From assembly GCF_902652985.1 (NCBI RefSeq), contig NC_047029.1, positions 21,018,001 through 21,082,000 of the forward strand: DNA of 64,000 bases, in the 5' to 3' direction. The notes below the pieces were generated by a model. The model was not told the DNA's origin and did not search any database. It saw only the letters and a program-made list of their open reading frames with translations. Made by a program: the position numbers and the translations under genes. The stretch comes from Pecten maximus. Its lineage: Eukaryota. Positions 157 through 27,758 of this stretch are shown piece after piece. The stretch's first letter is position 1, and every line of letters starts with the position of its first letter.

Positions 157-697
157 ACTTCACAGAGATATATGTATATGTATATGTATATATATATATA
201 TATAGGGTCTAGTAAGTAATAACGACGGTATAAACCAATATAGGTACTGGATCCTAACAAACAAATGTTGGATGCGTATTACTAGAAATAGATATATGTC
301 AAGTAGTAATAACGACGGTACAGACAAGTAAATTGTCAAATTTTCGAGGCAATCCGCCCCTTTATCAAGACACAGGTAAATTACATACGATCACATATAG
401 ACATAGAACATGGAACAGTTACACAAATATAGTATTACTTTTAGCATCTGTACACCACCAAAGATGTTTCCTTATTAATCATAATAGGCCCTCGGCGAAT
501 TTAGTATCGGCTGAGGGGGATCATTTTTACAACATTATGATACTTTTTGTTGTTTATACCTACTATGTTTGTGTAACTGTTCCATGTTCTATGTCTATAT
601 GTGATCGTATGTAATTTACCTGTGTCTTGATAAAGGGGCGGATTGCCTCGAAAATTTGACAATTTACTTGTCTGTACTGTCGTTATTACTACTTGAC

Positions 698-740: not shown

Positions 741-2142
741 ATGTGCCGTTAACTCTTTATGTGATTATAACAAAAGGTACCGTTATTTTTGTTGAAACAA
801 TGATTCAAATAGTAATAATTAGTTGCTTATTATAATATAGGAATCATATCTAATTGAGAGGGAAAAACAAGAGAAAATTATTGAAAGTACACTGTATATC
901 ATTGTTACCTGTACATGGTGGATTTTTAATTATAAAAGATTTTCCATTATTTCATTTCTAAAGTGTTGTGTAATATCATTATTAATATAAGTAATTAATT
1001 ATCACTATATGTATTTTGTTATGAATACGTACATATGAATGTATATGTTATTTTTAATAGTATTCTTAAACATTTTCTTCACTTGTTAGTCACCTTTGAG
1101 TTCCATGTACATAATGTATATGTATACGGAAACAGACTCTACCTACATTTTCCACAGGTAAACCCAGGTAATGTTTATATAGCAAAAACAACATGTTGGC
1201 TGAGTGGGAATGAACCGCGTACGTTTCTGTATACATGGTATGACCTAGTATACTATATATCCAGTTTAAAACTGTAATCTATACATATTAAACATATTGT
1301 TATACATTATTTAACCTCATGTACGATAAATAACATACCTGTGTTGGTTGATAGTCAGGTGTGAAATATATTATCAGAACCTATAGAACTTTACGTTTAT
1401 GAGACGTAATATAAAAACCCTTGTGTCACATCCGGGAACGGACATCCGACTCGCCATACAACAACACGGCCACCCCCTTCCTCCCACATCCCGAGATACA
1501 TGTAGCTATGACGTATTAAAGAATCAAATCGTCAATCAAAGATAAGTACCTGGCTTCAATACACTAAATACGAACTCTGAAGATCTGCTACAGTGCCGAT
1601 ATTTCTGGATAGCACATCTACATATTAAAATAATATCAGCATATATAAGTTTTCAAAACTTATTTCCGAATCCCATTCCTCTGTATATACTATGTGAAAA
1701 TGGAATGAAATAAAGTTTATATAAAATAATATCAAACGCGAACCAGGTCGTTACCTTGAAAAGTCAACATCGCCTGCTGTTGAAGGAAATTTCCTTAGGC
1801 CAACACATTATACTACTGTCCCTGGCGTTACGGTTTTTCACTTCCTTTCACAAAGATTTTATAGAATAAATCAAATGGGTAATTGGTAGCAGGATAAGGC
1901 CCATATACTTATGTTCTCTCACTAATGAAGTTACAGTTAAAAGATACAGTTTAATAGGAGTCGGTGTTTATACGAGTTGGAATCAGGTTATCACAGTTTC
2001 AGGCTAGGTTCACTGCCACAGGAAATTCGTGGCCAATCTGTGTGCCGAGGGCACACCAAATGTAATAAGCCTCGCTTTGGATCAAGCACTGTTTGTTACA
2101 ACAGAATGACACGTGCACGAGGGATTGGCATACAGACATGTA

Positions 2143-3172: not shown

Positions 3173-5639
3173 CAAGGCGGGGTCAGTTTGATTGGATCGG
3201 ACAAGATGGCATAATTCATACAACTCATCGCGTACAGAATGATGTGCGCGAGCAGGTAACTACATCGAACAGGCATAAGTAAGATAGCTTTATAAGATTT
3301 TAGCTTGTTTTCGAATCATAATTCTATTGTATGTATGATTTTTATTGTGATGTTGTATGGAAGTACTTGAATATTAATAAAATATGACGTCACGATACTG
3401 ACTATATATTCTTGGACAGAAGTAGGTCACTACTTTCGAATAACATGCACTGGAATTTATATTATTGTATAAATATACACGGTTAAGGATTTTCTTCACA
3501 GAACAATTAACCATCGTATTAATTTTTGTTTATCAAAATACAAGGCATATACGTTCTCCAGGACATTTCCTACGCCCGTGTGACTGTGGAAATGGCCACT
3601 GAATTAAACAGTTTTACTTATGTAACACGGTTTCGGCTATTGTTTAATGAGGTAGTCAGCGCTGATAGTTTAAAGCAAACAAAGTGATATAAACTTACCG
3701 TTTATGGAGAGAAATGATCCAGGACTTTTACTCGATATCAAATTGCCAAGTTACTCTCTAATTAACGTTTATAAAATCGGCGGAAGTAACCTATTGACAC
3801 AGCTCGATCCAATTTCCGGTCCCTGTGTACGCAAGTACTTCCGGATTTATCTTGTCACGTCAAGTGTCCTCGTGAACCTAGCATCATATGATAAAGGAGG
3901 AGTGCCAATTTTGGCTTTCTATTGGCTATCACACATAAGTTTTATTATTTTTTTTTTTATAGATAAATTGAGGTTAGGTGGTCATGATATGAGTTGAAAT
4001 TAGGGTCAGGTCAGCGACCATTACGAGTTACGAAGGGGTCAATTTGAGGGTCAATTTCACGATTAGCCCAATTTTGACGAAACGTAATGATATTTTTGGA
4101 ATTTTCATCATAATTATGATGCATTGATATGTTGAAAATAAAACAAATCGAATAACCAACCCATAGTCAAAAAGTACGTCATAGCGACCCATTTTTTGCC
4201 ATCCCGAGATGTCGGCACTCCAGTGTATGTTCTTAATTATTCAATACCAGTGGGTAGCAAACAAACATACATGTATATCGAAATATGGTTCACTTTCATA
4301 CTTATCAAATTACATCAACTTGACCATTCCACTGATGTTATAATCAAACTCAAAGTTTCAAAACATTTCGCGGCCATATTTGTAATGCGAGTCACGTGAT
4401 TAACGTCTCACAGGAAACTGTTTTCAGCATGAGGATTACCGTGTCACGTGATATCTCGCCAGGTCACACGAACGCAGTCAATACAAATATGGCTGCTAAA
4501 TGTTTAGAAACCATTGATAGTGCTACTTGTAAATATTTTCAAAATTATATCGCATTTAATATTTTTGCATTTCTGCCTACAAACTTTCGCCATTCAAATT
4601 AGTTCATTGACAATTTCATACGCTAAACGTTTTAATCACAACATAGTCTTTGTACCTTTTAAGAAAAATGTGTAAAATCTACCTGGTTGTTGTCAGGTTA
4701 ACCATTTTGTTGTCACAATAACTTGTGCAATAGTCGTGTCCATCGTGTACATTAGTTCTTTCAGCTGCATTATATGACGTAATTAGATGAACTAGTCCTA
4801 GAAGGTATGACTATGCTTTCAGTCTCGGACAAAGGTCTGATTAGGTTTGCTTACTTGTTCCAGAGACGTATATACCTGATATACAAGTCTCTGCTTGTTC
4901 GGGAACTGATTTCCGTCATAAGGGAGAGTTTAATGTGTCATCTGTCAATCAAATTACTTCATACTATCAGTATCTGCATGCCTTCTTGAGAGCTAGAACT
5001 TTGACCAGACGAATATTAGGATATATTCCAAAAAAAATCGCTCACCGACCTATATATGTATATAAGTTTTATAAATTTATATCCGGACTATACATTCGGC
5101 AACTCTCGTCGATTGTTACATAATACTAATTCTTATTTCACATGCTCTTCAACATTATATACCGGTAATAAATGACTACAATCAGTATTTTTCATGACTG
5201 ATACACATATAAAACCCTTCTTAGCTTTATAGTAGTGTTTTCAGTGAAATTTCCATCAGACCTTCACTGGTTTCATTTAATCATATTGACATGAGTTGTT
5301 CAGGGAGGTAGAACCTCCAGCAAAATCCCACTCACAAGACATGATGATGCCCAGAGGGCATGTATAGATCAACTGGATATTTCAGTGACTATGGCAGAAC
5401 ACTCATTTCAATTTAAATAAATTACAAATACTTTTTCCCCAGTTTTAGATCTACTATTCAATACTTTGCATTGAAATTAACGCGTTCCTTTACCTACCAT
5501 TTAACTTTCTGGTTCCAAAAAAGATAACAAGCAAATTAAGTTGAAAACTTTAATAACCAATTCTGACTTCCTTTAATGGGCCCCGGGTTAATTTCCATTA
5601 TTCCATTTGGGTTCTCTTATTGCCCCATCCAGAACAACC

Positions 5640-6060
5640 GTTTATATAAAATTAGTTCCACCTAACCCATTTGTACGATCCCGACTGCCTAGGCATGCTA
5701 CGATTCAATTTTGTGGGTTATCCCCAATATTTGTAGTATTTTGAATCCTCATCACCTAGGGATGCTACTAGTCAAATATGAGTGATATACAATTCTTAGT
5801 TCAAGAGAAGAATTCGTTTGTAGCAATAAAGTCCCCCTTTTAGCCCCGCCCATGAGCCTCCTTGGAGTTCAACCCCACAACTTATACCATATTACCTAAT
5901 CTTTCAAATAAGGATGCTTCTTATCACTTTTTTCTAAATTCAAATCCTTGGTTAAGAAGCAGTAGTAGAATTTGTTGACGTATGTGCTAGACACAGCAGA
6001 CGGATGGTCACAGGGTATGGCATAAGCACAACTAGGTCCTTCAGACCAGGTGAACAAAAA
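5640..6060 (+). mobile_element. Degraded 3' part of a HINE/Helentron-type non-autonomous element
   Basis: Shares the GGATGCTAC...AAATATGAGTGATAT...AGAAGAA blocks with 61869-62480. Ends in a CAGACGGA-like tract and an imperfect hairpin (GGTCCTTCAGACC) before an A-run. Confidence 0.45.
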
Positions 6061-6329
6061 TTATTTCCCAGGTGTGTTCCCAAGTATATATAATTTCTGA
6101 ACTTAACACCATGTTTTCCTGTATCGTTTTCAATCTTACCAGCCTAAGTCTCATCATGAAATCATTACATTGACATTGACCTATTGGATTTCAATTATCC
6201 CTTTGCGAGCTATAAAGGGGACGCTGACTCTAAAATGCACAGGCATCGCAATATAATGTTTCAGCCTTGACCTCAATATCTCTAAACCCTCCCCCCCCCC
6301 CCCCCCCCCCCCCTTGATAGATGTCTGTC

Positions 6330-7750
6330 AGATTAAGCTGTCTTCCGTGCAGATTGCTTTGTCAGGAGTTCCGAGGATATATCTACTGATAAGCGCAGTA
6401 TGTTGTGCAACCATCGGTTTTTCCACTGCTGTAAGTGGTAAAAGCCGCCTACAAAATGTATTTGGTTTCTCCGCTTACAGGATGGCTCTTTCGTCAATCC
6501 ATACTGTTGCAGATTGACAGGTTATGTGAGTAAATCGTACAAGTCAGGAAGGTCACAATGAATTATTGACTCAGTTCTCTGCAGTTCTGTACCAGCCACT
6601 GCTCGCTCTGTTGTGATTCCTTACTGCGTTGCATTGACCTTCTCTCATTGATGGATACGTGTGTACCCAACATCCCAGCAACCCGTGTTCCTAATGATGA
6701 CACTGTTTTAACATACTCTCTGCTATTGCTACCTGCGTTATTTTGTCAACCTCTTACGCCACCTTCGACTCTTCCACAACTGCTGTCAATTCAGTGGAAT
6801 GGCTACATAGCATAGACTCGAAGATTGCTGAAACTCCGAAGAACTTTCTAACGACTGCGTTCCTATGCTTTTTCTGGTTCTGCGGGTCAGCAAGTTTATC
6901 ATCCAATCATTTACCAAGGCACTCGATAGTCACTTGTGATGTGTATATGTGATCTTCTCCTGAACCACCAATGTGAACAGTCCATTTAACCGAGTCCACC
7001 TCCTTCACGTCTTATGACGGAACTACAATATCACTTTTCAGTACGTTAGAAACAATCTGGTTTGTACTTGACTGGTGTTAACCGGGTTATCTATAAACTC
7101 GCTGTTTAACAGATAACCGATTCCTTCTTTGGTCTTCAGTGCCTCCACAGTGATGCCTTGATGATGAAATTTATTCCCATGATGACGATTTCGGTGAAAA
7201 ACCTTATCCTGTTACTATCTCTTTGTGTAATTGTAACGCTGTTCTCGACTGGAATAATCAGCTGCATCCCACTTAAGTATTTGAGACTCCCAGGAAAACC
7301 TGCACGGATCTTTGATCTCTTTATGTCTCTCTCATAATTTTGATTCCTTTCTGATGTAGTCTCTCCTCCTGGTCTTTGAGATAGCTTCGTAGTAGTTAGA
7401 TCATAGTTTCTACTGTTGCTCCTTCAAATCATTACATAAAGCGTGAACATTGGACGTCATGATGGCTTCCAGTGACCCTTGCGAAGTTGCTTTTGATGTG
7501 GTCGAAAAAATTCTTGCCAATAATGTTCCATACTTCTTTAATATATTGCCACTCTGCTCTTTCTTGTTGCTCGCTTCTTAAACGTTTATAACGGAGAAAC
7601 TACGGTTAAACTGCTAGTATAGGGTTTGTCCTGCGTGGCACCGTTTTGACTTCTGCTGCAAAGTGCGTCGGTGACGGCCTATGACAGCATTTTAATCTTT
7701 CTCACAGACTTTCCGCACTGGCATTCGATTTCGAGTGGTCTCCCATCACC
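6330..7750 (-). mobile_element. Heavily decayed, internally deleted HERO/NeSL-like (R2-group, RLE-type) non-LTR retrotransposon
   Basis: Minus-strand peptide remnants in the order expected for this family: ECQCGK (N-terminal zinc finger), AGFPG, MGINFIIKA, EFIDN..TSQVQTR (cf. GFMDD..T.VQARW), ECLGK*LD, AVVEESKV and LYDLLT*PVNLQQYGLTKEPSCK (cf. VYDLLPSPxNLxxWGLxExPxC). Many stops and frameshifts. Confidence 0.55.
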
Positions 7751-9255
7751 ACACCATGTTCTGCCCCTAACATTTTTTTTGTGTTTACCCTATCAATTAT
7801 AGATACAGTGATTCAGACGAATTCAGATAAAAATCGTCATAAAATTATGTGATAGGAAGAATCAAGGATTTATTTGTATATTTACAGTTTTTTCACAATG
7901 ATCGTGTCTATAACGAGGTAAATAGCTTCTTTAAATGATACTGTAATGTTTTCTGACCTGGTAGTGGAAAGTTTTCTGTTTCGTCAATGTTTCACATAAA
8001 GATTCATATTATTGATAAGTAAGATTATATATCATAATTACTTGTTTTCGCGTTAAATGCGTTTTCCACACAGGAAACAAAGACAGGGTACCAGTTCTGT
8101 TCTGATTAATAGTACAATGGCGCTAATGATTTTTTTGATGGATAGCAGGTACGTAGTAACCAACTCCGCGGATCGTAAACATCTATATCATTTGGAAAAG
8201 CTGACCTTTTTAATTTTAAAACTAATAAGGACAGATAAGTTAAGATATATTTTATTTAAAGCGTCAGACATTTCAAAGTACACCAGTCAGGCAAATATTA
8301 AAATCACCAGCCTTACAAGACTGAAATCACATTAAGCAAGATATGGCGGTAAAGGTTTATTATCACTATTACTAGGGCCACAAGTAATATCATATGGATC
8401 ATGATCTTATTTTTAACTGTGGCAGTAGGGCCACAAGTAATAGCATATCGATCGAGATCTTTACTACACCTACATGTATGACTGTGACCATGATCAAAAT
8501 CGTAACTTTTAAGTAATAATAGTATATATCGCAAAATTCATCCCATTGGTGTCCCAACAGCTTATCCTTAGTCATCTTATCAGGCCTTGGTGGTAATCAC
8601 TAACCTGTTGATCACTATGAATACTTTAAGCTAGTGCATGTGCGACTTACTTTAAATCTAGTACATCCTGCTGATAGGCAAGGGAAGGGGCAATTCAGGA
8701 ATGTCCCATTTATGTCCGCCTGATAGACCAATATCATTACTTGTACACCTGAATTGACGCAATCTGTCAAACGTCAATCTCTTCTTGAATATTAAACACT
8801 TTTCCAGATTTAGCTGTAGCTACCTGATTCTGAGTCAGTCATCCATCACTTAGATCATTGGCTAGTCAAAAACATCCCCAGACAATTTAAGCGCCGCCAT
8901 GTGTGTTTTCGCTAAATGTATGCTGATCAAAATGTAGATAATTTGAAATGGAAAAGAGCTTAAGTGTACAGTATTACTAAAAGTTAGCGTGCGAAAGTAG
9001 AATTTTATTACTCGTTTTGTAAATGAATGGTATGCACAGATAAACAAAAATCAGTTCACTATATTGAGTTTTTGAAATGTAAATTATGATGAAAACTGTC
9101 GGCGAAGATAGAATTTTATGGCTCATTTTTTGCAAGAATGACATGCACAGGTAAACATCACATCTGAAATGTAAATTTGGATGAAAAATTGTTGATATTG
9201 CGTAACTACAACGAAGAGGGTGATATATTATCGATCTACTTTTTATACACTGACT

Positions 9256-9256
<1 letters not shown>

Positions 9257-9299
<43 letters not shown>
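9257..9299. repeat. (AG)n microsatellite
   Basis: About 21 perfect AG repeats. Confidence 0.95.
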
Positions 9300-9302
<3 letters not shown>

Positions 9303-9766
9303 GACGGGGATCAGTATCGCTATTGGTTGCATAATATTTAAATGTTCGTTTGTTTTATTTTAACTAACATTAAACACATAATTTAAGAATTATCAAAGCA
9401 AAATATCATTTAAAACACAGAAATACTCCAAGCATGTGCGATAGCATACAATTTTTGCGTCAAAGTTTCTCACGAAGCTCACAATAGACTGCCCGAGCAA
9501 CCGTTGTTTGGATGTATAGGGAAACAGGTATTAAATATGAAACTAGTACCCGTGCTTAACAATGAGCTGTCATATATCTCACATTATAACTAGAACATAC
9601 TCTTTCGTAATACAATGTTTGGCCGGTCACTAACTGTTCAGGAGCCGAGAGACGACGGGTAATCCGAAGGCTACTTTTTCTTCGGATCACAGCGACTTTA
9701 ACATTAGGTTTCATGCTAATGATTCAACACACTGATAGTAACCGATATAAGAGCGTTGTCATCAAT

Positions 9767-9771
<5 letters not shown>

Positions 9772-9803
<32 letters not shown>

Positions 9804-9810
9804 GGGGGGG
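9772..9810. repeat. (TG)n microsatellite plus G-run at the left edge of the macro-repeat
   Basis: TG run followed by G10, directly abutting the first base shared with the other units (GGGTATCAGTTCTGA). Confidence 0.9.
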
Positions 9811-10201
9811 TATCAGTTCTGAATATGCAACTTTTTTGCTGCTTTCTGTGGTGTAAACATGTATAATTTTATATAATATGCAATAAACGTGATCATTTGA
9901 TAAATTGTAAATATATTGTATTGTTAACATTGAATCAGAATGGGACGCGCTGTCCACTGGACGGAACGCGACGGGAATTGGCAACACTGTCTCCCCAGTA
10001 ATTAGGTCGATAGAAACGTTAAATTCTGAATGGGGAAATGCAAACGCCAAATAACTTGATAATTATCAGTATGGCGAGAAAAACGCTAACAAAATAACAT
10101 CTTTAAAAGATGTCAGGGGTATCTACTCTACAGTATAACTATAATCAGTACAAACAATGCACACGTAAAACAAACACGTTATTCTGTAGTAGTTGTCTTA
10201 C

Positions 10202-10398
10202 CTTGTAATTCCGAGCGATGAACTTTACAACAGCACACTTATGTAAACCAAATGTTACGTACTCCTGTCACTATGAAGAAATCCGAGAAGTAAAATCTCA
10301 CTAGAGCAAAGTGAAGATAAATTCACATTTTCAGCGGAACCATTCTGATAATTTCTACCACTGAATTACCAAACCTCCGAGTCGACAGTCCTATTTAA
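10202..10398 (-). promoter_or_regulatory. Putative core promoter + non-coding first exon + splice donor (also 12639-12836, 17702-17903, 21131-21332)
   Basis: Minus strand: TTAAATAG TATA-like element, Inr-like TTAGT/TCAGT about 28-36 nt downstream, ~165 nt without a long ORF, then AAG|GTAAGA (copy 1) or GAG|GTAAGA (copies 2-4). Motif-level evidence only. Confidence 0.35.
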
Positions 10399-10675
10399 CA
10401 CTACCCTTTCCCTATATGGTGTTAACAAAATATATGTGAAGCCTTATCTGACAGATCTGGTGAACGTGATACCCCTTTCTGTTGACACAGACATGCATGT
10501 ACAATATGGGTCTCACAACATAAATAATGTTGCATTCTTATGACACTACATTAATTTTCAGAGATTGGTGAAACTAGACCAATTGTCAAATGCATAAAGA
10601 CCTCTATTGAAATAGAAATCAAAAATGTTATAGCAAAAGTAACTTCCGGGACGAAAACGGTAAACATAGAATCGT

Positions 10676-11155
10676 CCATCATTATAAAGGGTTAGTATAC
10701 ACCTCCTCCCCGTGACCTAGTGAGATACAATAGTCTACATTATAAAGGGTTAGTATACACCCCCTCCCGTGACCTAGTGAGATACAATAGTCCAACATTA
10801 TAAAGGGTTATTATACACCCCCTCCCCGTGTCCTAGTGAGATACAATAGTCCAACATTATAAAGGGTTATTATACAACCCCCTCCCCGTGACCTAGTGAG
10901 ATACAATAGTCCAACATTATAAAGGGTTATTATACACCCCCTCCCCGTGACCTAATGAGATACAATAGTCCAACATTATAAAGGGTTTGTATAAATCCCC
11001 TCCACGTGACCTAGTGAGATACAATAGTTCTACATTAAAAAAGGTTAGTATACATCCCCTCCACGTGACCTAGTGATATACAATAGTCCAACATTATAAA
11101 GTGTTAATATACATCCCCTCCCCGTGACCAAGTGAGAAATACTAGTCCAATATTA
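10676..11155. repeat. 59-bp minisatellite array 1 (~8 units)
   Basis: Consensus GTGACCTAGTGAGATACAATAGTCCAACATTATAAAGGGTTATTATACACCCCCTCCCC. Confidence 0.95.
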
Positions 11156-11331
11156 AAAATATACGGTATTTCCTCGTTAAACATTGTCTGTGTTCATTGA
11201 AAAAACTATAAGACAATGTGTGTGATACACTCTTCATCTTAAACTTCAGCGGGAATTTGATTTTTGCATGTTGAAAATCGGTAGGTGTTTAATATCGGTA
11301 CTAAAATAATGAGTTAAAAGGAAAAATAATT

Positions 11332-11487
11332 GGCATTATCTCCTTAATCACGATTATGGCATTGAAAACAAAACGATAAGCGGTATTATCTCCTTAATTA
11401 CGATTATGGCATTGAAAACAAAACAATACACGGCATTATCTCCTAATTACGATTATGGCATTGAAAACAAAGCAATACGCGGTATTC
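11332..11487. repeat. 50-bp tandem repeat x3 within segment B (also ~14264-14421 and ~19862-20018)
   Basis: GG(C/T)ATTATCTCC recurs at 11332, 11382 and 11432. Confidence 0.9.
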
Positions 11488-13119
11488 ATTAAATTACATA
11501 TTTCTTCACCTTGTGAGTCGTTTCTCGGGAAATTTCAGAAAGACATCAGTATAAGATTATACTTTCTGTTTTAAATTTTAAGACAATGATTGATTCATTC
11601 TCTGTTGTTATCAATCGAGTGTTACAATTTTAGTCGTTGTAGCCCCTAGGAAAGGTCGCTTTCATTATCTCCGTCCTCCGTCGGGCTCGGTGAGATTCCT
11701 GACCTGAATAAGCATCTGCAGGCTCACAAAAAATCCCTACGTGACAGCGCATCGTGATAAATGATACTCGATATATGAAACAAATTACCTATATTTGAGA
11801 CAAAAATAGATCTGTTCCACCCATTACAGGCCTGCTTTTCTTTTGTACTGTTGCGTTCTCCCTGTCTCGTGTCGTCAAATGACCTTGGTTGCTGTAAGGG
11901 CGTATACTCCGTTGAATATATTACACCATCTTAATAATCACAATGCTCTAGAGTTTCAGTGCATGGTATTTGGTACTAAAACAACTTAAACTTTTAAAAC
12001 TAAAAAATGTGATATTCATATTAATAAAACAAATTGTCACGTAAGGTAGCCCCGTGACCTTTGCATCAAGTTTGACCAAAATCCATGAAATCATGAAGTT
12101 GCTAAGTGTTCAAATTGAATGAGTTGGTGTTTTTTTCTTTATATAGCGAATATGACCTTGGTCTTGAAAACAATGTTTTCTGTATAATCATACTTGACCG
12201 TTGTATAATGAAGTTGTTAAATGTCTCATAAGCCAAGCCTGGCTGGGTATCAGTTCTGAATATGCAACTTTTTTGCTGCTTTCTGTGGTGTAAACATGTA
12301 TAATTTTATATAATATGCAATAAACGTGATCATTTGATAAATTGTAAATATATTGTATTGTTAACATTGAATCAGAATGGGACGCGCTGTCCACTGGACG
12401 GAACGCGACGGGAATTGGCAACACTGTCTCCCCAGTAATTAGGTCGATAGAAACGTTAAATTCTGAATGGGGAAATGCAAACGCCAAATAACTTGATAAT
12501 TATCAGTATGGCGAGAAAAACGCTAACAAAATAACATCTTTAACAGTTGTCAGGGGTATTTACTCCACAGTATAACTATAATCAGTACAAACAATGCACA
12601 CGTAAAACAAACACGTTATTCTGTAGTACTTGTCTTACCTCGTAATTCCGAGCGATGAACGTTACAACAGCCCACTTATGTAAACCAAATGTTACGTACT
12701 CCTGTCACTATGAAGAAATCCGAGAAGTAAAATCTCACTAGGGCAAAGCGAACATCAATTCACATTTTCAGCGGAACCATTCTGATAATTTCTAGCATTG
12801 AATCACTAAACCATCTGAGTCGACAGTCCTATTTAACACCACCCTTTTCCCATATGGTGTAAACTAGATATATGTGAAGCCTTATCGGACGGACCTGGTG
12901 AGCGTGATACCCCTTTCTGTTGACGCAGACATGAATGTACAATATGGGTCTCGCAAAATTGATAATGTTGCATTCTTATGACACTACATTTATTTTCAGG
13001 GATTGGTGAAACTAGACCAATTGTTACATGCATCAACACCTCTATTAAAATGTAAATCAAACACTTTATAGCAAAATTAACTTTCGGGACAAAAAGGGTA
13101 GACAACACTGTCAACGTAA

Positions 13120-14088
13120 TCTAGTGAGATACAATAGTCCAACATTATAAAGGGTTAGTATACACCCCCTCCCCGTGACCTAGTGAGATACAATATTCCA
13201 TCATTATAAAGGGTTAGTATACATCCCTCCCCGTGACCTAGTGAGATACAATATTCCATCATTATAAAGGGTTAGTATACACCCCCTCCCCGTGACCTAG
13301 TGAGATACAATAGTCCATCATTATCAAGGGTTATTATACATCCCCTCCCCGTGACCTAGTCAGATACAATATTCCAACATTATAAAGGGTTATTATACAC
13401 CCCCACCCCGTGACCTAGTGAGATACAATAGTCTATCATTATAAAGGGTTATTATACATCCCCTCCCGTGACCTAGAGATATACAATGGTCAACATTATA
13501 AAGGGTTATTATACACCCCTCCCCGTGACCTAGTGAGATACAATAGTCAACATTATAAAGGGTTATTATACAACCCCTCCCCGTGACCTAATGAGATACA
13601 ACAGTCCTACATTATAAAGGGTTATTATACATCCCCTCCCCGTGACCTAATGAGATACAACAGTCCTACATTATAAAGGGTTATTATACAACCCCTCCCC
13701 GTGACCTAATCAGATAAAATATTCCTACATTATAAAGGGTTAGTATACACCCCCTCCACGTGACCTAGTGAGAAACAATAGTCCAACATTATACAGGGTT
13801 ATTATACACCCCCTCCCCGTGACCTAGTGAGATACAATGGTCCAACATTATACAGGGTTATTATACACCCCCTCCCCCATTGACCTAGTGAGATACAATA
13901 GTCCAACATTATAAAGGGTTTGTATACATCCCCTCCACGTGACCTAGTGAGATACAATAGTTCTACATTAAAAAAGGTTAGTATACATCCCCTCCACGTG
14001 ACCTAGTGATATACAATAGTCCAACATTATAAAGGGTTAATATACATCCCCTCCCCGTGACCAAGTGAGAAATACTAGTCCAATATTA
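13120..14088. repeat. 59-bp minisatellite array 2 (~16 units)
   Basis: Same consensus as array 1. Confidence 0.95.
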
Positions 14089-14944
14089 AAAATATACGGT
14101 ATTTCCTCGTTAAACATTGCCTGTGTTCATTGAAAAAACTATAAGACAATGTGTTTGATACACTCTTCATCTTAAACTTCAGCGGGAATTTGATTTTTGC
14201 ATGTTGAAAATCGGTAGGTGCTTAATATCGGTACTAAAATAATGAGTTAAAAGGAAAAATAATTGGCATTATCTCCTTAATCACGATTATGGCATTGAAA
14301 ACAAAACGATAAGCGGTATTATCTCCTTAATTACGATTATGGCATTGAAAACAAAACAATACGCGGCATTATCTCCTTAATTACGATTATGGCATTGAAA
14401 ACAAAGCAATAAGCGGTATTCATTAAATTACATATTTCTTCACCTTGTGAGTCGTTTCTCGGGAAATTTCAGAAAGACATCAGTATAAGATTATACTTTC
14501 TGTTTTAAATTTTAAGACAATGATTGCTTCATTCTCTGTTGTTATCAATCGAGTGTTACAATTTTAGTCGTTCTAGTTCCTAGGAAAGTTCCCCGTCCTC
14601 CCTCGGCCTCGGTGAGTACTGACCTGTGTATCCATCAGCACGGCCACAAAACGATTATACGATCAGTATGAGAACACCTTCCTATGTAAATCAAATGACC
14701 TATATATGAGACAAAAATAGATCTGTTCCTCCCATTACAGGCCTTTCTTTTCTTTACTGCTCTTTATATGTAGACCTTTTTGTACTGTTGCTGTCTCCCT
14801 GTCTCGTGTCGTCAAATGACCTTGGTTGCTGTAAGGATGTTGACCCCGTTAAAACTTAATATCTTATACCACCTTTATAATCACAATGCTCTAGTGTCAG
14901 TATTTATTAGGTACTAAAATAACTTATTAAGTTTTAAAACTAAA

Positions 14945-17077
14945 CAAGAGATCCCAGAGGGATCTTGGCGCCCACCATTAAATGATCTTCATAGGTTCCA
15001 TGTCAGATTGATCTTTTCTCTACTTTTCCCTTCATTTTACTAATCTGTGCAAATTGAGACATCCCTCCAGTACTTTTCAAACAAGGGAATCCTAGCTATA
15101 TAAGAAATTTGAGATTTAAAGATAATGGCTGTTTGTTTGCCAGGTTGTTTTCAGGACAGACTGGTCCAAAAATGCAATACAAGGGACCAAGGGGAACCTA
15201 CTTATAAAATTTGAGAAAGATCCATTCATTACTTTGAGAAATAGAGATAACAAACTTCAATTGTCAAAATCCAAGATGGTGGTCTGTCGGCCATATTGTT
15301 TTCCAATTGATCTCAAAATACAATAAGCATAACGAGGCACCAAGGGGAACCTCCATATGAAATTTGAGAAAGATCCCTTCAGTACTTTCTCAGAAATAGT
15401 GATAACAAATTTCAATTGTCAAAATCCAAGATGGCTGCCTGTCGGCCATGTTATTTTCAGATTGGTCTCAAAATGCAATATGCATAACTAGGCACCAAGG
15501 GAAACTTACATATGAAATTTGAGAAAGATCCCTTAAATACTTTCTCAGAAATAGTGATAACAAACTTCAATTGTCAAAATCCAAGATGGCTGCCTGTCGG
15601 CCATGTTGTTTTCCGATTGGTCTCAAAACGCAATATGCATAACTAGGCACCAAGGGAAACTTACATATGAAATTTGAGAAAGATCCCTTAAATCCTTTCT
15701 CAGAAATAGTGATAACAAACTTCAATTGTCAAAATCCAAGATGGCTGCCTGTCGGCCAGGTTGTTTTCAGATTGGTCTCAAAACGCAATATGCATAACTA
15801 GGCACCAAGGGAAACCTACTTATGAAATTTCAGAAAGATCCATTCAGTACATTCTCAGAAATAGCGATAACAAACTTCAATTGTCAAAATCCAAGATGGC
15901 TGCCTGTCGGCCATGTTGTTTTCCGATTGGTCTCAAATCACAATATGCATAACTAGGCACCAAGGGGAACCTACATATGAAATTTGAGAAAGATCCCTTC
16001 AGTACTTTCTCAGAAATAGTGATAACAAACTTCAATTGTCAAAATCCAAGATGGCTGCCTGTCGGCCATGTTGTTTTCGGATTGGTCTCAAAACGCAATA
16101 TGCATAACTAGGCACCAAGGGGAACCTTCATATGAAATTTGAGAAAGATCCCTTCAGTACTTTCTCAGAAATAGCGATAACAAACTTCAATTGTCAAAAT
16201 CCAAGATGGCTGCCTGTCGGCCATGTTGTTTTCAGATTGGTCTCAAAACGCAATATGCATAACAAGGCACCAAGGGGAACCTTCATATGAAATTTGAGAA
16301 AGATCCCTTCAGTACTTTCTCAGAAATAGCGATAACAAACTTCAATTGTCAAAATCCAAGATGTCTGCCTGTCGGCCATGTTGTTTTCGGATTGGTCTCA
16401 AAATGCAATATGCATAACTAGGCACCAAGGGGAACCTACATATGAAATTTGAGAAAGATCCCTTCGGTACTTTTTCAGAAATAGCGATAACAAACTTCAA
16501 TTGTCAAAATCCAAGATGGCTGCCTGTCGGCCATGTTGTTTTCGGATTGGTCTCAAAACGCAATATGCATAACTAGGCACCAAGGGGAACCTTCATATGA
16601 AATTTGAGAAAGATCCCTTCAGTACTTTCTCAGAAATAGCGATAACAAACTTTAATTGTCAAAATCCAAGATGGCTGCCTGTCGGCCATGTTGTTTTCCG
16701 ATTGGTCTCAAAACGCAATATGCATAACTAGGCACCAAGGAGAACCTTCATATGAAATTTGAGAAAGATCCCTTCAGTACTTTCTCAGAAATAGCGATAA
16801 CAAACTTTAATTGTCAAAATCCAAGATGGCTGCTTGTCGGCCATGTTGTTTTCGGATTGGTCTCAAAACGCAATATGCATAACTAGGCACCAAGGGGAAC
16901 CTACATATGAAATTTGAGAAAGATCCCTTCAGTACTTTCTGAGAAATAGCGATAACAAGAATTGTTTACGGACGGAGGGACGGACGGACGGACGGACGGA
17001 CGGACGGACGGACGGACGGACCACGGACCACGGACGCAGGGCGATTTGAATAGCCCACCATCATCAGATGGTGGGCT
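14945..17077 (+). mobile_element. Intact non-autonomous Helentron/HINE (DINE-1/pearl-like) carrying a 155-bp satellite array
   Basis: Left subterminal hairpin (AAGAGATCCCAGAGGGATCTTG), ~12 x 155-bp repeats, a (GGAC)n tract and a right hairpin AGCCCACCATC-ATCA-GATGGTGGGCT. Inserted in an A-run; the empty site AACTAAAAAATGTCATA is visible in the paralogous unit at ~20534-20550. Confidence 0.9.
15110..16960. repeat. 155-bp satellite array (~12 units) inside the HINE
   Basis: AACTAGGCAC recurs at 15641, 15796, 15951 and onward (period 155). A stray fragment of the same unit lies at ~63273-63337. Confidence 0.95.
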
Positions 17078-18186
17078 AAAAATGTCATAATCATATCGTA
17101 GCCGCGTGACCTTTGCATGAAGATTGACCGAAACCCATGAAATAATGAAGTTGCTGAGTGTTTAAATTGAATCAGCTAGTGCTTTTATCTATGGAGCGAG
17201 TATCACCTTTGTCTTGACTTTAATACTATGAAAAACAATGGTGTTTATATAATAATACTGGACCTTTGTATAGTGATGCTGTTAAATGTCTCATAAGCCA
17301 ATCCTGGCTGGGTATCAGTTCTGAGTATGCACCTATTTTACTGTACACTTGTATAATTTTTCTGTGGTATAAACATGTATGACTTTATATAATATGCAAT
17401 GAACTGTGATCCATGATTATTGTATTTTTAACATTAAATCGGAATGGGACGCGCAACGGGACTGGACGCGACGGGAATGGACAACATTATATCCCACGTA
17501 ATAAGGTCAATATAAACGTTAAATTCTGAATGGAGAAATGCCAAAGCCAAATAACTTTATAATTACCAGTATGGCGAAAAGAAAGTTAACAAAATAACAA
17601 CTTTAACAGTTGTCAGGGGTATTTACTCCACAGTACAACTATATTCAGTACAAACAATGCACACGTAAAACAAACACGTTACTCTGTAGTAGTTGTCTTA
17701 CCTCGTAATCCCGAGCGATGAACTTTTCAGCCTATATCACACTTACATAAACCAAATGTTACGTACTTCTGTCACTATGAAGAAATCCGAGAAGTAAAAT
17801 CTCACTAGGGCAAAGCGAACATCAATTCACATTTTCAGCGGAACCATTCTGATAATTTCTAGCATTGAATCACTAAACCATCTGAGTCGACAGTCCTATT
17901 TAACACCACCCTTTTCCCATATGGTGTAAACTAGATATATGTGAAGCCTTATCGGACGGACCTGGTGAACGTGATACCCCTTTCTGTTGACGCAGACATG
18001 CACGTAAAATATGGGTCTCGCAAAATTAATAATGTTGCATTCTTATGACACTACATTTATTTTCAGGGATTGGTGAAACTAGACCAATTGTTACATGCAT
18101 CAACACCTCTATTAAAATGTCAATCAAACACTTTATAGCAAAATTAACTTTCGGGACAAAAAGGGTAAACAATACTGTCAACGTAA

Positions 18187-19686
18187 TCTAGTGAGATACA
18201 ATATTCCATCATTATAAAGGGTTAGTATACATCCCCTCCCCGTGACCTAGTGAGATACAATATTCCATCATTATCAAGGGTTATTATACACCCCATCCCC
18301 GTGACCTAGTGAGATACAATATTCCATCATTATAAAGGGTTAGTATACACCCCCTCCCCGTGACCTAGTGAGATACAATATTCCATCATTATAAAGGGTT
18401 AGTATACACCCCCTCCCCGTGACATAGTGAGATACAATATTCCATCATTATAAAGGGTTAGTATACACCCCCTCCCCGTGACATAGTGAGATACAATATT
18501 CCATCATTATAAAGGGTTAGTATACACCCCATCCCCGTGACCTAGTGAGATACAATATTCCATCATTATAAAGGGTTAGTATACACCCCCTCCCCGTGAC
18601 ATAGTGAGATACAATATTCCATCATTATAAAGGGTTAGTATACACCCCATCCCCGTGACCTAGTGAGATACAATATTCCATCATTATAAAGGGTTAGTAT
18701 ACACCCCCTCCCCGTGACCTAGTGAGATACAATAGTCAACATTATAAAGGGTTATTATACAACCCCTCCCCGTGACCTAATGAGATACAACAGTCCTACA
18801 TTATAAAGGGTTATTATACATCCCCTCCCCGTGACCTAATGAGATACAACAGTCCTACATTATAAAGGGTTATTATACAACCCCTCCCCGTGACCTAATC
18901 AGATAAAATATTCCTACATTATAAAGGGTTAGTATACACCCCCTCCCCGTGACCTAGTGAGAAACAATAGTCCAACATTATACAGGGTTATTATACACCC
19001 CCTCCCCGTGACCTAGTGAGATACAATGGTCCAACATTATACAGGGTTATTATACACCCCCTCCCCGTGACCTAGTGAGATGCAATGGTCCAATATTATA
19101 AAGGGTTATTATACATCCCCTCCCCGTGTCCTAGTGAGATACAATAGTCCAACATTATAAAGGGTTATTATACAACCCCTGCCCGTGACCTAGTGAGATA
19201 CAATATTCCAACATTATAAAGGGTTATTATACACCCCCTCCCCGTGTCCTAGTGAGATACAATAGTCCAACATTATAAGGGTTATTATACACCCCCTCCC
19301 CGTGACCTAGTGAGATACAATAGTCCAACATTAAAGGGTTATTATACATCCCCTCCCCGTGACCTAGTGAGATACAATAGTCCATCATTATAAAGGGTTA
19401 TTATACAACCCCTCCCCGTGACCTAGTGAGATACAATGGTCCAATATTATAAAGGGTTATTATACATCCCCTCCCCGTGTCCTAGTGCGATACAATAGTC
19501 CAACATTATAAAGGGTTTGTATCAATCCCCTCCACGTGACCTAGTGAGATACAATAGTTCTACATTAAAAAAGGTTAGTATACATCCCCTCCACGTGACC
19601 TAGTGATATACAATAGTCCAACATTATAAAGGGTTAATATACATCCCCTCCCCGTGACCAAGTGAGAAATACTAGTCCAATATTAA
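18187..19686. repeat. 59-bp minisatellite array 3 (~25 units)
   Basis: Same consensus; a homogenised ATATTCCATC/TTAGTATAC block at the left end. Confidence 0.95.
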
Positions 19687-21615
19687 AAATATACGGTATT
19701 TCCTCGTTAAACATTGTCTGTGTTCATTGAAAAAACTATAAGACAATGTGTGTGATACACTCTTCATCTTAAACTTCAGCGGGAATTTGATTTTTGCATG
19801 TTGAAAATCGGTAGGTGCTTAATATCGGTCCTAAAATAATGAGTTAAAAGGAAAAATAATTGGCATTATCTCCTTAATCACGATTATGGCATTGAAAACA
19901 AAACGATAAGCGGTATTATCTCCTTAATTACGATTATGGCATTGAAAACAAAACAATACGCGGCATTATCTCCTTAATTACGATTATGGCATTGAAAACA
20001 AAGCAATACGCGGTATTCATTAAATTACATATTTCTTCACCTTGTGAGTCGTTTCTTGGGAAATTTCAGAAAGACACCAGTGTAAGATTATAATCTCTGT
20101 TTTAAATTTTAAGACAATGATTGCTTCATTCTCTGTTGTTATCAATCGAGCGTTGCAATTTTAGTCGTTCTAGTTCCTAGGAAAGTTCCCCGTCCTCCCT
20201 CGTCCTCGGTGAGTACTGACCTGTGTATCCATCAGCACGGTCACAAAACGATTATACGATCAGTATGAGAACACCTTCCTATGTAAATCAAATGACCTAT
20301 ATATGAGACAAAAATAGATCTGTTCCTCCCATTACAGGCCTTTCTTTTCTTTACTGCTCTTTATATGTAGACCTTTTTGTACTGTTGCTGTCTCCCTGTC
20401 TCGTGTCGTCAAATGACCTTGGTTGCTGTAAGGATGTTGACCCCGTTAAAACTTAATATCTTATACCACCTTAATAATCACAATGCTCTAGTTTCAGTAT
20501 TTATTAGGTACTTAAATAACTTATAAGTTTTAAAACTAAAAAATGTCATAATCATATCGTAGCCGCGTGACCTTTGCATGAAGATTGACCGAAACCCATG
20601 AAATAATGAAGTTGCTGAGTGTTTAAATTGAATCAGCTAGTGCTTTTATCTATGGAGCGAGTATCACCTTTGTCTTGACTTTAATACTATGAAAAACAAT
20701 GGTGATGCTGGTAAATGTCTCATAAGCCAATCCTGGCTGGGTATCAGTTCTGAGTATGCACCTATTTTACTGTACACTTGCATAATTTTTCTGTGGTATA
20801 AACATGTATGACTTTATATAATATGCAATGAACTGTGATCCATGATTATTGTATTTTTAACATTAAATCGGAATGGGACGCGCAACGGGACTGGACGCGA
20901 CGGGAATGGACAACACTACATCACAAGTAATAAGGTCAATATAAACGTTAAATTCTGAATGGAGAAATGCCAAAGCCAAATAACTTTATAATTACCAGTA
21001 TGGCGAAAAGAAAGTTAACAAAATAACAACTTTAACAGTTGTCAGGGGTATTTACTCCACAGTACAACTATATTCAGTACAAACAATGCACACGTAAAAC
21101 AAACACGTTACTCTGTAGTACTTGTCTTACCTCGTAATCCCGAGCGATGAACTTTTCAGCCTATATCACACTTACATAAACCAAATGTTACGTACTCCTG
21201 TCACTATGAAGAAATCCGAGAAGTAAAATCTCACTAGGGCAAAGCGAACATCAATTCACATTTTCAGCGGAACCATTCTGATAATTTCTAGCATTGAATC
21301 ACTAAACCATCTGAGTCGACAGTCCTATTTAACACCACCCTTTTCCCATATGGTGTAAACTAGATATATGTGAAGCCTTATCGGACGGACCTGGTGAGCG
21401 TGATACCCCTTTCTGTTGACGCAGACATGCACGTACAATATGGGTCTCGCAAAATTAATAATGTTGCATTCTTATGACACTACATTTATTTTCAGGGATT
21501 GGTGAAACTAGACCAATTGTTACATGCATCAACACCTCTATTAAAATGTCAATCAAACACTTTATAGCAAAATTAAATTTCGGGACAAAAAGGGTAAACA
21601 ACACTGTCAACGTAA

Positions 21616-24600
21616 TCTAGTGAGATACAATATTCCATCATTATAAAGGGTTAGTATACACCCCTCCCCGTGACCTAGTGAGATACAATATTCCATCATT
21701 ATCAAGGGTTATTATACACCCCCTCCCCGTGACCTAGTGAGATACAATAGTCCATCATTATAAAGGGTTATTATACATCCCTCCCCGTGACCTAGTGAGA
21801 TACAATATTCCAACATTATAAAGGGTTATTATACACCCCTCCCCGTGACCTAGTGAGATACAATAGTCCATCATTATAAAAGGTTATTATACACCCCTCC
21901 CCGTGACCTAGTGAGATACAATAGTCCAACATTATAAAGGGTTAGTATACACCCCCTCCCCGTGACCTAGTCAGATACAATATTCCATCATTATAAAGGG
22001 TTAGTATACACCCCCTCCCCGTGACCTAGTGAGATACAATAGTCCAACATTATAAAGGGTTAGTATACACCCCCTCCCCGTGACCTAGTGAGATACAATA
22101 GTCCAACATTATAAAGGGTTATCATACAACCCCTCCCCGTGACCTAGTGAGATACAATATTCCATCATTATAAAAGGTTATTATACACCCCCTCCCCGTG
22201 ACCTAGTGAGATACAATATTCCATCATTATAAAGGGTTAGTATACACCCCCTCCCCGTGACCTAATGAGATACAACAGTCCAATATTATAAAGGGTTATT
22301 ATACATCCCCTCCCCGTGACCTAGTCAGATACAATAGTCCAACATTATAAAGGGTTAGTATACACCCCCTCCCCGTGACCTAGTTATACAATAGTCCAAC
22401 ATTATAAAGGGTTAGTATACACCCCTCCCCGTGACCTAGTTATACAATAGTCCAACATCATAAAGGGTTATTATACAACCCCTCCCCGTGACCTAGGGAG
22501 ATACAATAGTACAACATTATAAAGGGTTATTATACAACCCCTGCCCGTGACCTAGTGAGATACAATGGTCCAACATTATAAAGGGTTATTATACAACCCC
22601 TCCCCGTGTCATAGTGAGATACAATAGTCCAACATTATAAAGGGTTAGTATACATCCCCTCCCCGTGACCTAGTGATATACAATAGTCCATCATTATAAA
22701 GGGTTATTATACACCCCCTCCCCGTGACCTAGTGATATACAATAGTACAACATTATAAAGGGTTATTATACAACCCCTCCCCGTGACCTAGTGAGATACA
22801 ATGGTCCAACATTATAAAGGGTTATTATACAACCCCTCCCCGTGTCATAGTGAGATACAATAGTCCAACATTATAAAGGGTTATTATACACCCCCTCCCC
22901 GTGACCTAGTGAGATACAATAGTCCAACATTATAAAGGGTTAGTATACATCCCCTCCCCGTGACCTAGTGATATACAATAGTCCATCATTATAAAGGGTT
23001 ATTATACACCCCCTCCCCGTGACCTAGTGAGATACAATAGTCCAACATTATAAAGGGTTATTATACATCCCCTCCCTGTGACCTAGTGAGATACAATAGT
23101 CCATCATTATAAAGGGTTATTATACACCCCCTCCCCGTGTCCTAGTGAGATACAATGGTCCAACATTATAAAGGGTTATTATACATCCCCTCCCCGTGAC
23201 CTAATGAGATATTTGGTTTGTTTATTTGTTTGTTTTAACGTCCTATTAACAGCCAGGGTCATTTAAGGACGTGTCAGGTTTTGGAGGTGGAGGAAAGCCG
23301 GAGTACCCGGAGAAAAACCACCGGCCTACGGTCAGTACCTGGCAACTGCCCCACGTAGGTTTCGAACTCGCAACCCAGTGGTGGAGGGCTAGTGATAAAG
23401 TGTCGGGACACGTTAACCACACGGCCACCGCGGCCCCTCCTAATGAGATGAGATACAACAGTCCAACATTATAAAGGGTTATTATACACCCCCTCCCCGT
23501 GACCTAGTGAGATACAATGGTCCAACATTATAAAGGGTTATTATACACCCCCTCCCCGTGACGTAGTGAGATACAATAGTCATTATTATACAGGGTCAGT
23601 ATACACCCCCTCCCCGTGACCTAGTGACATACAATAGTCCAACATTATACAGGGTTAGTATACACCCCCTCCCCGTGACCTAGTGAGATACAATGGTCCA
23701 ACATTATAAAGGGTTAGTATACATCCCCTCCCCGTGACCTAGTGAGATACAATAGTCCAACATTATACAGGGTTAGTATACACCCCCTCCCCGTGACCTA
23801 GTGAGATACAATCGTCCATCACTATAAAGGGTTATTATACAACCCCTCCCCGTTACCTAGTGAGACACAATAGTCCAACATTATAAAGGGTTATTATACA
23901 TCCCCTCCCCGTGACCTAGTGATATACAATAGTCCATCATTATACAGGGTTATTATACACCCCCTCCCCGTGTCCTAATGATATACAATAGTCCAACATT
24001 ATAAAGGGTTATTATACACCCCCTCCCCGTGTCCTAATGATATACAATAGACCTACATTATAAAGGGTTATTATACACCCCCTCCCCGTGACCTAGTGAG
24101 ATACAATAGTTCAACATTATAAAGGGTTATTATACAACCCCTCCCCGTGACCTAGTGATATACAATAGTCCAACATTATAAAGGGTTATTATACAACCCC
24201 TCCCCGTGACCTAGTGAGATACAATAGTCAACATTATAGAGGGTTATTATACACCCCCCCTCCCCGTGACCTAGTGAGATACAATAGTCATTATTATACA
24301 GGGTTAGTATACACCCCCTCCCCGTGACCTAGTTATACAATAGTCCAACATTATAAAGGGTTATTATACACCCCCTCCCCCTGACCTAGTGATATACAAT
24401 AGACCTACATTATAAAGGGTTATTATACACCCCCTCCCCGTGACCTAGTGAGATACAATAGTCCAACATTATAAAGGGTTATTATACAACCCCTCCCCGT
24501 GACCTAGTGATATACAATAGTCCAACATTATAAAGGGTTATTATACAACCCCTCCCCGTGACCTAGTGAGATACAAGTCAACATTATAGAGGGTTATTAT

Positions 24601-25118
24601 ACACCCCCCCTCCCCGTGACCTAGTGATATACAATAGTCCAACATTATAAAGGGTTATTATACAACCCCTCCCCGTGACCTAGTGATATACAACAGTCCT
24701 ACATTATAAAGGGTTATTATACAACCCCTCCCCATGACCTAGTGAGATACAATAGTCCAACATTATAAAGGGTTATTATACAACCCCTCCCCGTGACCTA
24801 GTGATATACAATAGTCCTACATTATAAAGGGTTATTATACAACCCCTCCCCGTGACCTAGTGAGATACAATAGTCCAACATTATAAAGGGTTATTATACA
24901 TCCCCTCCCCGTGACCTAGTGAGATACAATGGTCCAACATTATAAAGGGTTATTATACACCCCCTCCCCGTAACCTAGTGAGATACAATGGTCCAACATT
25001 ATAAAGGGTTATTATACATCCCCTCCCCGTGACCTAATGAGATACAATAGTCCAACATTATAAAAGGTTATTATACAACCCCTCCCCGTTACCTAGTGAG
25101 ATACAATAGTCAGCATTA
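21616..25118. repeat. 59-bp minisatellite array 4 (~55 units, interrupted by a SINE)
   Basis: Same consensus; lacks the terminal variant units and segment B seen after arrays 1-3. Confidence 0.95.
23212..23437 (-). mobile_element. tRNA-derived V-SINE, full length, with TSD
   Basis: Minus strand GGGGCCGCGGTGGCCGTGTGG (A box), GTTCGAAACC (B box), V-core TTTCTCCGGGTACTCCGGCTTTCCTCCAC and (AAAC)-rich tail. CCTAATGAGAT is duplicated at 23200-23210 and 23439-23449. Confidence 0.9.
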
Positions 25119-27685: not shown

Positions 27686-27758
27686 TACATCATATAGAAC
27701 ATTAATACAGGTAACGTTTGAATATTATTAGAATTTGAGTTTACATACATAAACAGTT

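What the first reader, a model, noticed from the sequence alone, without database searches (positions are those of the whole stretch)
10202..21332. Each unit carries a candidate promoter/first-exon cassette: possible tandem alternative promoters
Seen: all four A segments keep, on the minus strand, TTAAATAG, then TTAGT/TCAGT about 30 nt later, ~165 nt of non-coding sequence and a strong (A/G)AG|GTAAGA donor. A CArG-like CC(C)ATATGG / CCTATATGG lies just upstream and the VNTR about 280 bp further upstream. Inference: four alternative non-coding first exons, each with its own VNTR length, could splice to a common downstream gene or lncRNA at lower coordinates. This is the best candidate here for an undescribed system, but support is motif-level only.
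Basis: inference. Interest (0 to 1): 0.7.

Follow-up and report, generated by a model that had tools for sequence, protein, structure and literature searches.

The report
Quadruplicated start region of scallop transporter
A scallop gene for a vitamin C/nucleobase-type transporter has a stretch of its upstream DNA copied four times in a row, each copy beside a minisatellite; the stretch likely holds an extra non-coding start exon, but the one spliced RNA piece found here starts from a different, unduplicated exon just downstream.

Summary
The four copies are real and local: an ~870-bp segment (A) plus a 59-bp minisatellite (8, 16, 25, 59 units), found nowhere else in the genome search. The predicted downstream gene exists. 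It is a minus-strand SLC23A1-like transporter whose ATG ends a 38-nt mini-exon 13.5-24.5 kb below the A donors. That mini-exon already takes alternative 5' exons: window 8824-8883 (one RNA contig) and 1755 (annotated isoform X1); at least four annotated transcripts share one protein. No A-to-gene junction was seen. The motif case is weaker than stated. The donors are strong, but such sites recur about every 4 kb. The CArG box fails, the Inr in A1 is a different site, and the copies are only two lineages plus a crossover hybrid, so shared motifs are expected by descent. Promoter, exon and near intron are less diverged between lineages (10% vs 17%). Best reading (0.45): one distal first exon of an already multi-promoter gene, multiplied by unequal crossing-over into near-redundant copies, with the VNTR likely a passenger. 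This is a known design (PEP1-like), and the scan noted similar cases in other genomes.

The parts
1755..1770 (-). Coding end (MLTFQ + 1 nt) of an alternative 5' exon of the SLC23A1-like gene, used by annotated isoform X1; donor at 1754; 5' end not determined
8824..8883 (-). Single-copy upstream exon joined to the ATG mini-exon in one RNA contig; likely a first exon (contig ends at 8883); donor CAG|GTAGCT at 8823
9808..10665 (-). Segment A1 (lineage alpha): TATA-like word 10398, candidate non-coding exon ~10362-10202, donor 10201
10666..11159 (.). 59-bp minisatellite V1, 8.4 units
11160..12244 (.). Spacer B1/C1 (holds a 3x50-bp repeat and fragments of dispersed repeats); right half is lineage alpha
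12245..13114 (-). Segment A2, crossover hybrid (promoter side as A3/A4, intron side as A1): TATA-like word 12836, TTAGT 12807, candidate exon 12807-12639, donor 12638
13121..14092 (.). 59-bp minisatellite V2, 16.5 units
14093..14942 (.). Spacer B2 (continues as C2 at 17078-17309 beyond the inserted element)
14943..17083 (.). Young dispersed element inserted in unit 2 only: 11.5 x 155-bp repeat, (ACGG)n, terminal palindrome; HINE/Helentron-like
17310..18181 (-). Segment A3 (lineage beta): TATA-like word 17903, candidate exon 17874-17702, donor 17701
18188..19689 (.). 59-bp minisatellite V3, 25.5 units
19690..20738 (.). Spacer B3/C3
20739..21610 (-). Segment A4 (lineage beta): TATA-like word 21332, candidate exon 21303-21131, donor 21130
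21617..25118 (.). 59-bp minisatellite V4, 59.5 units by span, interrupted at ~23211-23438 by a SINE-like insertion between 11-nt direct repeats

Best explanation
The four units are tandem copies of DNA lying 1.3-12 kb above a spliced upstream exon of an SLC23A1-like transporter gene, and segment A likely carries one further, distal non-coding first exon of that gene, which unequal crossing-over likely multiplied into near-redundant copies. Shown: the gene, its 38-nt ATG mini-exon, two other upstream exons joined to it, the locus-specific array, and the hybrid nature of A2. Inferred: transcription would start about 29 nt below TTAAATAG in one or more copies, and the AG|GTAAGA donor would splice 13.5-24.5 kb to the mini-exon. 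The result would be the same 621-aa protein behind a ~200-nt leader with 2-5 short closed upstream ORFs. Because A2-A4 have identical core promoters, the copies would mostly add dosage, not four specificities. The 59-bp array is likely a passenger and a substrate for the crossovers, with any regulatory effect untested.
For: (1) The gene is mapped exactly on the minus strand: 14 coding pieces, all GT-AG, and the start ATG is the last codon of a 38-nt exon with a good acceptor. (2) The gene is already multi-5'. At least 4 accessions share the protein starting at that ATG, and a fifth isoform adds the 1755 exon. One RNA contig in run X2 joins exon 8824-8883 to the mini-exon. At least 3 annotated variants remain unplaced. 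Orthologues in three other scallops also have 2 to at least 4 accessions per identical protein. (3) A donors score 8.4-8.9 bits on a matrix trained on this gene, above 11 of its 13 own donors in leave-one-out scoring, and lack a good upstream acceptor, as first exons do. (4) TATA-like + Inr-like + AG|GTAAG geometry arose in 22 of 5000 simulated segments and once elsewhere in 214 kb of real DNA; the pattern was defined after seeing the copies. (5) Between lineages, promoter + exon + first 100 nt of intron differ at 54/545 sites with 2 indels, against 141/831 with 15 indels in distal intron and spacer (p=2e-4 and 0.013). (6) Orientation and position fit: A1's donor is 1.3 kb above the 8824-8883 exon.
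Against: The only upstream exons tied to the mini-exon are 8824-8883 (1 contig, in 1 of 4 runs laid) and 1755, and neither is an A copy. 29 other GT sites in 114 kb score as high as the A2-A4 donors. Several strong non-A donors (e.g. 3698, and 3136 bp left of the window) could account for the unplaced variants. The Inr is not homologous in A1, the CArG fails, and TTAAATAG is not a consensus TATA box. Low divergence can come from homogenisation: 479 nt of non-exonic spacer differ at only 6-11 sites between units, and the longest identical block is where A2 crossed over. CpG ratio does not set A apart from background. A shows no similarity to the gene's other 5' exons.
Confidence: 0.45

Rival explanations
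1. Segment A is ordinary upstream DNA with a cryptic donor and a TATA-like word. The array is a neutral local amplification driven by the minisatellite and unequal crossing-over, and the gene is driven only from its single-copy 5' exons.
For: Both placed 5' exons are single-copy and not A. Equally strong donors occur about once per 4 kb. Motif retention is expected by descent. Homogenised tracts also occur in the spacer. The array has absorbed a young 155-bp-repeat element and a SINE-like insertion.
Against: Indel and substitution deficit over the whole 545-nt promoter/exon zone, including its uniformly diverged upstream part. Correct strand and spacing. At least 3 annotated 5' variants unplaced.
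Confidence: 0.33
2. A and the 59-bp array are not transcribed but act as a multiplied enhancer block for the promoter of the 8824-8883 exon, so that unit number or array length would tune transporter expression, as promoter repeats do for TaALMT1 or cyp51A.
For: The array begins 0.9 kb above the RNA-supported exon. Each 59-bp unit repeats TAGGTCA, a G-rich box and TATAAA (counts; their reading as factor sites is recalled, not tested). Precedent for transporter promoters.
Against: No test of activity was possible. Motifs in a repeat multiply by descent. The most conserved part is centred on the exon and donor, not on the array.
Confidence: 0.12
3. A holds an internal 5'-UTR cassette exon of 69-73 nt (acceptor ...TTTCTTCATAG at 10270/12707/17774/21203, same donor), spliced below a still more distal first exon.
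For: The acceptor-like site lies in a 61-nt block identical between lineages (p about 0.05). Strong donors exist further upstream, e.g. at 44012.
Against: The acceptor scores only 1.9 bits, and 24 of 29 other strong GT sites have an equally good one nearby.
Confidence: 0.05
4. Some of the four units are an assembly artefact: two haplotypes laid end to end, or a mis-joined repeat.
For: A1 and A2 are identical over 294 nt of intron, and A3 and A4 differ by ~1%. High hemizygosity is reported for this species (10.68%, passage).
Against: Alpha and beta lineages differ by 10-17% with many indels. Each array has its own length. The inserted element is in unit 2 only.
Confidence: 0.05

Closest known systems
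Arabis alpina PEP1 (PMC3527215; abstract and section 12 read)
   Same: Partial tandem duplication of a gene's 5' end; duplicated first exons splice to one shared downstream exon and give the same protein.
   Different: In PEP1 both junctions and both start sites are shown, exon 1 is coding, and the upstream sequences share little homology. Here no A junction is shown, the exon is non-coding, there are four copies with near-identical promoters, and each has a minisatellite.
Human SLC23A2/SVCT2 exon 1a and 1b promoters (PMC3332055; passages)
   Same: Same transporter family (PF00860) with alternative first exons and separate promoters, one ubiquitous and one cell-specific.
   Different: Those two promoters are unlike each other (CpG-poor and CpG-rich), and the passages read describe no tandem array or VNTR. 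The scallop gene's substrate is untested.
Clustered protocadherin variable first exons (PMC3333863; passages)
   Same: Tandem exons each with its own promoter; the 5'-most exon is spliced to constant exons.
   Different: Pcdh variable exons encode different proteins and carry a conserved CTCF-bound element. A exons are non-coding and would change only the leader.
Promoter tandem repeats raising expression: wheat TaALMT1 (review PMC6480313, one passage); Aspergillus cyp51A TR34/TR46 (PMC9239056, listing only)
   Same: Duplicated or triplicated upstream blocks in front of a gene (a transporter for TaALMT1).
   Different: There the effect on expression is measured between lines or isolates. Here only one assembly was seen and no effect is shown.

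Membership tests
Tandemly duplicated promoter + first exon on one gene body (PEP1 type) | Two or more tandem copies of a 5' segment upstream of a single gene body, same strand | tested here: met
   4 matches in G000, all at this locus; single SLC23A1-like body downstream on the minus strand
Tandemly duplicated promoter + first exon on one gene body (PEP1 type) | A shared downstream exon with an acceptor that takes alternative upstream exons | tested here: met
   38-nt ATG mini-exon joined to 8824-8883 and to 1755
Tandemly duplicated promoter + first exon on one gene body (PEP1 type) | The duplicated exons themselves are spliced to the shared exon | tested here: inconclusive
   Only assembled contigs of 7 runs were laid; the mini-exon was covered in 1 of 4 runs, by a contig from a non-A exon
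Tandemly duplicated promoter + first exon on one gene body (PEP1 type) | Independent transcription start site at each copy | not testable with these tools
   Contigs cannot show starts; no CAGE or 5'RACE data
Tandemly duplicated promoter + first exon on one gene body (PEP1 type) | Diverged upstream sequence that gives the copies different control | tested here: not met
   A2, A3, A4: 0/70 differences in the core and 3-6/208 upstream; only A1 differs (8/69, 24-25/208)
Variable first exons of Pcdh type | Each first exon encodes a different protein part | tested here: not met
   All ATGs in the A exons close within 1-12 codons; none is in frame with the main ATG
CArG box (SRF site) | CC(A/T)6GG (consensus recalled) | tested here: not met
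   A1 one mismatch; A2-A4 more than two; no enrichment
TATA/Inr core promoter | TATAWAWR about 30 nt above an Inr (consensus recalled) | tested here: inconclusive
   TTAAATAG is non-consensus; spacing is 29 nt in A2-A4 and 36 nt to a different site in A1; whole geometry in 22/5000 simulations, post hoc
Regulatory promoter VNTR | Array length varies and changes expression | not testable with these tools
   Lengths differ between paralogous units; no population or expression data
HINE (non-autonomous Helentron), for the 14943-17083 insert | Central tandem array, 4-nt microsatellite, terminal palindrome, T-rich insertion site, dispersed copies | tested here: met
   (40 of 40 scored candidates 99-100% identical, 1384 candidates), features from passages; subTIR/IR pair not checked

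The most novel reading that the evidence does not exclude
Four active copies of one distal promoter and non-coding first exon feed a single transporter gene. Each copy's output is set by the length of its own 59-bp minisatellite (8 to 59 units), and unequal crossing-over changes both copy number and array length between scallops. This would be a two-level, recombination-tuned expression dial.
Probability: 0.07. Interest if true: 0.7.

Novelty: new member of a known kind. Interest (0 to 1): 0.3.

Why it matters
If A is transcribed, this is a compact natural test of how a duplicated promoter and first exon behave soon after duplication. It offers two old lineages, a fresh hybrid, near-identical copies that can be told apart by a few SNPs, and different array lengths in one chromosome. 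It could also be a source of heritable expression variation in a transporter family reported in bivalve stress transcriptomes (passage). If A is silent, it is an ordinary local amplification next to a multi-promoter gene.

Tried and rejected
Run search: no RNA holder listed for window 5000-12000; 23 runs offered by species label only, all as contigs. Laying X1-X4 on 3200-10660 at 85% likeness: no contig on the A1 exon bins (10172-10660). This is no proof of absence, since contigs drop rare forms, a filter omits records, and expression of the gene was shown only for X2. Laying X2, X7, X10, X13 on the mini-exon: X7, X10 and X13 did not cover it, so they are uninformative. Rfam on 1-30000: 0 matches. 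A or VNTR as a dispersed transposon: rejected, since matches are local only; a short part of A's intron side has 6 weak matches elsewhere. A as a coding exon: rejected. A as a paralogue of the gene's other 5' exons: no score above shuffles. CpG signature: none. Bounding the number of annotated transcripts through the neighbouring gene's accession numbers failed, because this species' copy of the nested protein was not returned. Pfam gave nothing for 6 of 7 window ORFs tried. Literature: 8 searches; the two aimed at this gene listed no paper on its 5' structure (listings only). Zhang, Haws and Wu 2004 on variable first exons is not held and was seen only as a reference entry. No supplements were read.
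Full report
Structure. The region 9808-25118 is a tandem array of the form A1-V1-BC1-A2-V2-BC2-A3-V3-BC3-A4-V4. V is a 59-bp minisatellite of 8.4, 16.5, 25.5 and 59.5 units. A search of the own genome found A only here (4 matches) and V only here (46 matches, all in this stretch); the tool warns that counts are lower bounds. The spacers contain pieces of dispersed repeats. Unit 2 carries a young high-copy element at 14943-17083, and V4 carries a SINE-like insertion between 11-nt direct repeats.

The copies are not four independent witnesses. A3 and A4 differ by about 1%. A1 differs from them by 8-16% depending on the part. A2 follows A3/A4 down to 108 nt above the donor and mostly A1 from 46 nt above it, so it is a crossover hybrid. 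There are two lineages, and an 8-nt motif survives between them by chance with probability 0.38-0.49.

Motifs. TTAAATAG and the donors sit at the stated places. TTAGT lies 29 nt below the TATA-like word in A2-A4; A1 has TTGGT there, and its TCAGT is another site at 36 nt. The CArG claim fails: A1 has one mismatch, A2-A4 more than two, and sites with up to one mismatch are no more common than chance (107 against 131). The donors are good: 8.4-8.9 bits on a matrix from this gene's 13 donors, above 11 of 13 leave-one-out scores. Yet 29 other GT sites in 114 kb score as well as A2-A4. The full geometry appeared in 22 of 5000 simulated segments and once more in 214 kb of real DNA. That pattern was written after seeing the copies, and it also misses the gene's two supported 5' exons.

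The downstream gene. Stretches left of the window hold a minus-strand SLC23A1-like gene. Its annotated 621-aa protein P0003 maps exactly as 14 pieces with GT-AG introns, and the start ATG is the last codon of a 38-nt exon at L005:6657-6620 with a pyrimidine-rich acceptor. At least 4 accessions share this protein (the tool shows at most 4), so they differ outside the coding sequence. A fifth isoform begins MLTFQ, which is window 1770-1756 followed by a donor, joined in frame to the mini-exon. Orthologues from three other scallops also list 2 to at least 4 accessions per protein, so several non-coding variants look older than this array (inference).

RNA. Only contigs were available. In 1 of 4 runs laid on the mini-exon (X2; RNA by guess, but spliced), one 509-nt contig of depth 53 covers the mini-exon. 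Its loose ends match the next coding exon on one side and window 8827-8856 (29 of 30 letters) on the other. Depth fits cover of 8824-8883, and that stretch is single-copy. The join is read from loose ends of one contig, not from a joint table. So the gene's 5' region reaches at least 12.2 kb up, to 1.3 kb short of the A1 donor, and the form seen uses a non-A exon. A-derived junctions would span 13.5, 16.0, 21.0 and 24.5 kb; none was obtained.

Constraint. Between lineages, the promoter side, exon and first 100 nt of intron differ at 54 of 545 sites with 2 indels; distal intron and right spacer differ at 141 of 831 with 15 indels (p=2e-4; p=0.013). I left the left 479 nt of the spacer out of that comparison because it is recently homogenised (6-11 differences). 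That tract shows that low divergence here can arise without function. An acceptor-like AG 69-73 nt above the donor sits in a 61-nt identical block (p about 0.05) but scores only 1.9 bits, no better than background. CpG content and similarity to other 5' exons gave nothing.

Mechanism. Most likely (0.45), an ancestral A was one more distal non-coding first exon of a gene built to accept several. Unequal crossing-over, helped by the adjoining minisatellite, copied it. An active copy would splice its cap-proximal donor to the mini-exon (as for protocadherins) and give the same protein behind a leader with 2-5 short closed upstream ORFs. The supported 8824 exon also has upstream ATGs, so these do not disqualify A. 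Identical cores in A2-A4 argue for redundancy or dosage over four specificities. The main rival (0.33) is a silent amplification with a cryptic donor; enhancer dosage, an internal UTR exon and assembly artefact are less likely.

Comparison. It would work like Arabis alpina PEP1 (abstract and section 12 read). Membership is open, because the defining junctions are unshown and promoter divergence is not met for A2-A4. Alternative first exons are known in this family from human SLC23A2 (passages), and promoter repeats are known from TaALMT1 (one passage). Two searches aimed at this gene listed no paper on its 5' structure.

Verdict. This is a new instance of a known design; interest 0.3.

Noticed in passing
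L007:5254 to L006:7103 (G000:C15 about 20993250-21005100), plus strand: A five-exon PDZ/ZM-type gene lies wholly inside the ~20-kb second coding intron of the SLC23A1-like gene, on the opposite strand. The relative's two proteins come from contigs of the same length (96,470), so the nesting is probably shared with another scallop.
   Followed up: partly
L005:6864-6960 (3136 bp left of the window) and window 3698: Two more strong minus-strand donors (9.2 and 9.5 bits); the first has TATATA words upstream. Both are candidates for the unplaced 5' variants.
   Followed up: partly
window 1855-1865, minus strand: A consensus-like TATAAAA with a CCAAT further upstream lies above the exon ending at 1755, suggesting a conventional promoter for isoform X1 (sequence printed).
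   Followed up: no
window 14943-17083: Very young HINE-like element: 40 of 40 scored genomic copies are 99-100% identical at its left end, among 1384 candidates.
   Followed up: partly
window 23211-23438 and 40838-41057: Two 93%-identical copies of a tRNA-derived SINE-like element (class recalled, not tested); one sits inside V4 between 11-nt direct repeats.
   Followed up: partly
window 27753-29699, plus strand: 648-aa open frame with a reverse transcriptase domain, likely a 5'-truncated LINE.
   Followed up: partly
window 52044-57858, minus strand: Frames that look like exons of a membrane protein (signal-peptide-like, cysteine-containing and transmembrane-like pieces); no Pfam match.
   Followed up: partly
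window 8685-8875: Low-depth unspliced contigs cross the 8823 donor in runs X1 and X2: nascent RNA, a retained intron or DNA.
   Followed up: no
window 229-345 and 580-740: A long inverted duplication around (AT)n runs, possibly a foldback element.
   Followed up: no
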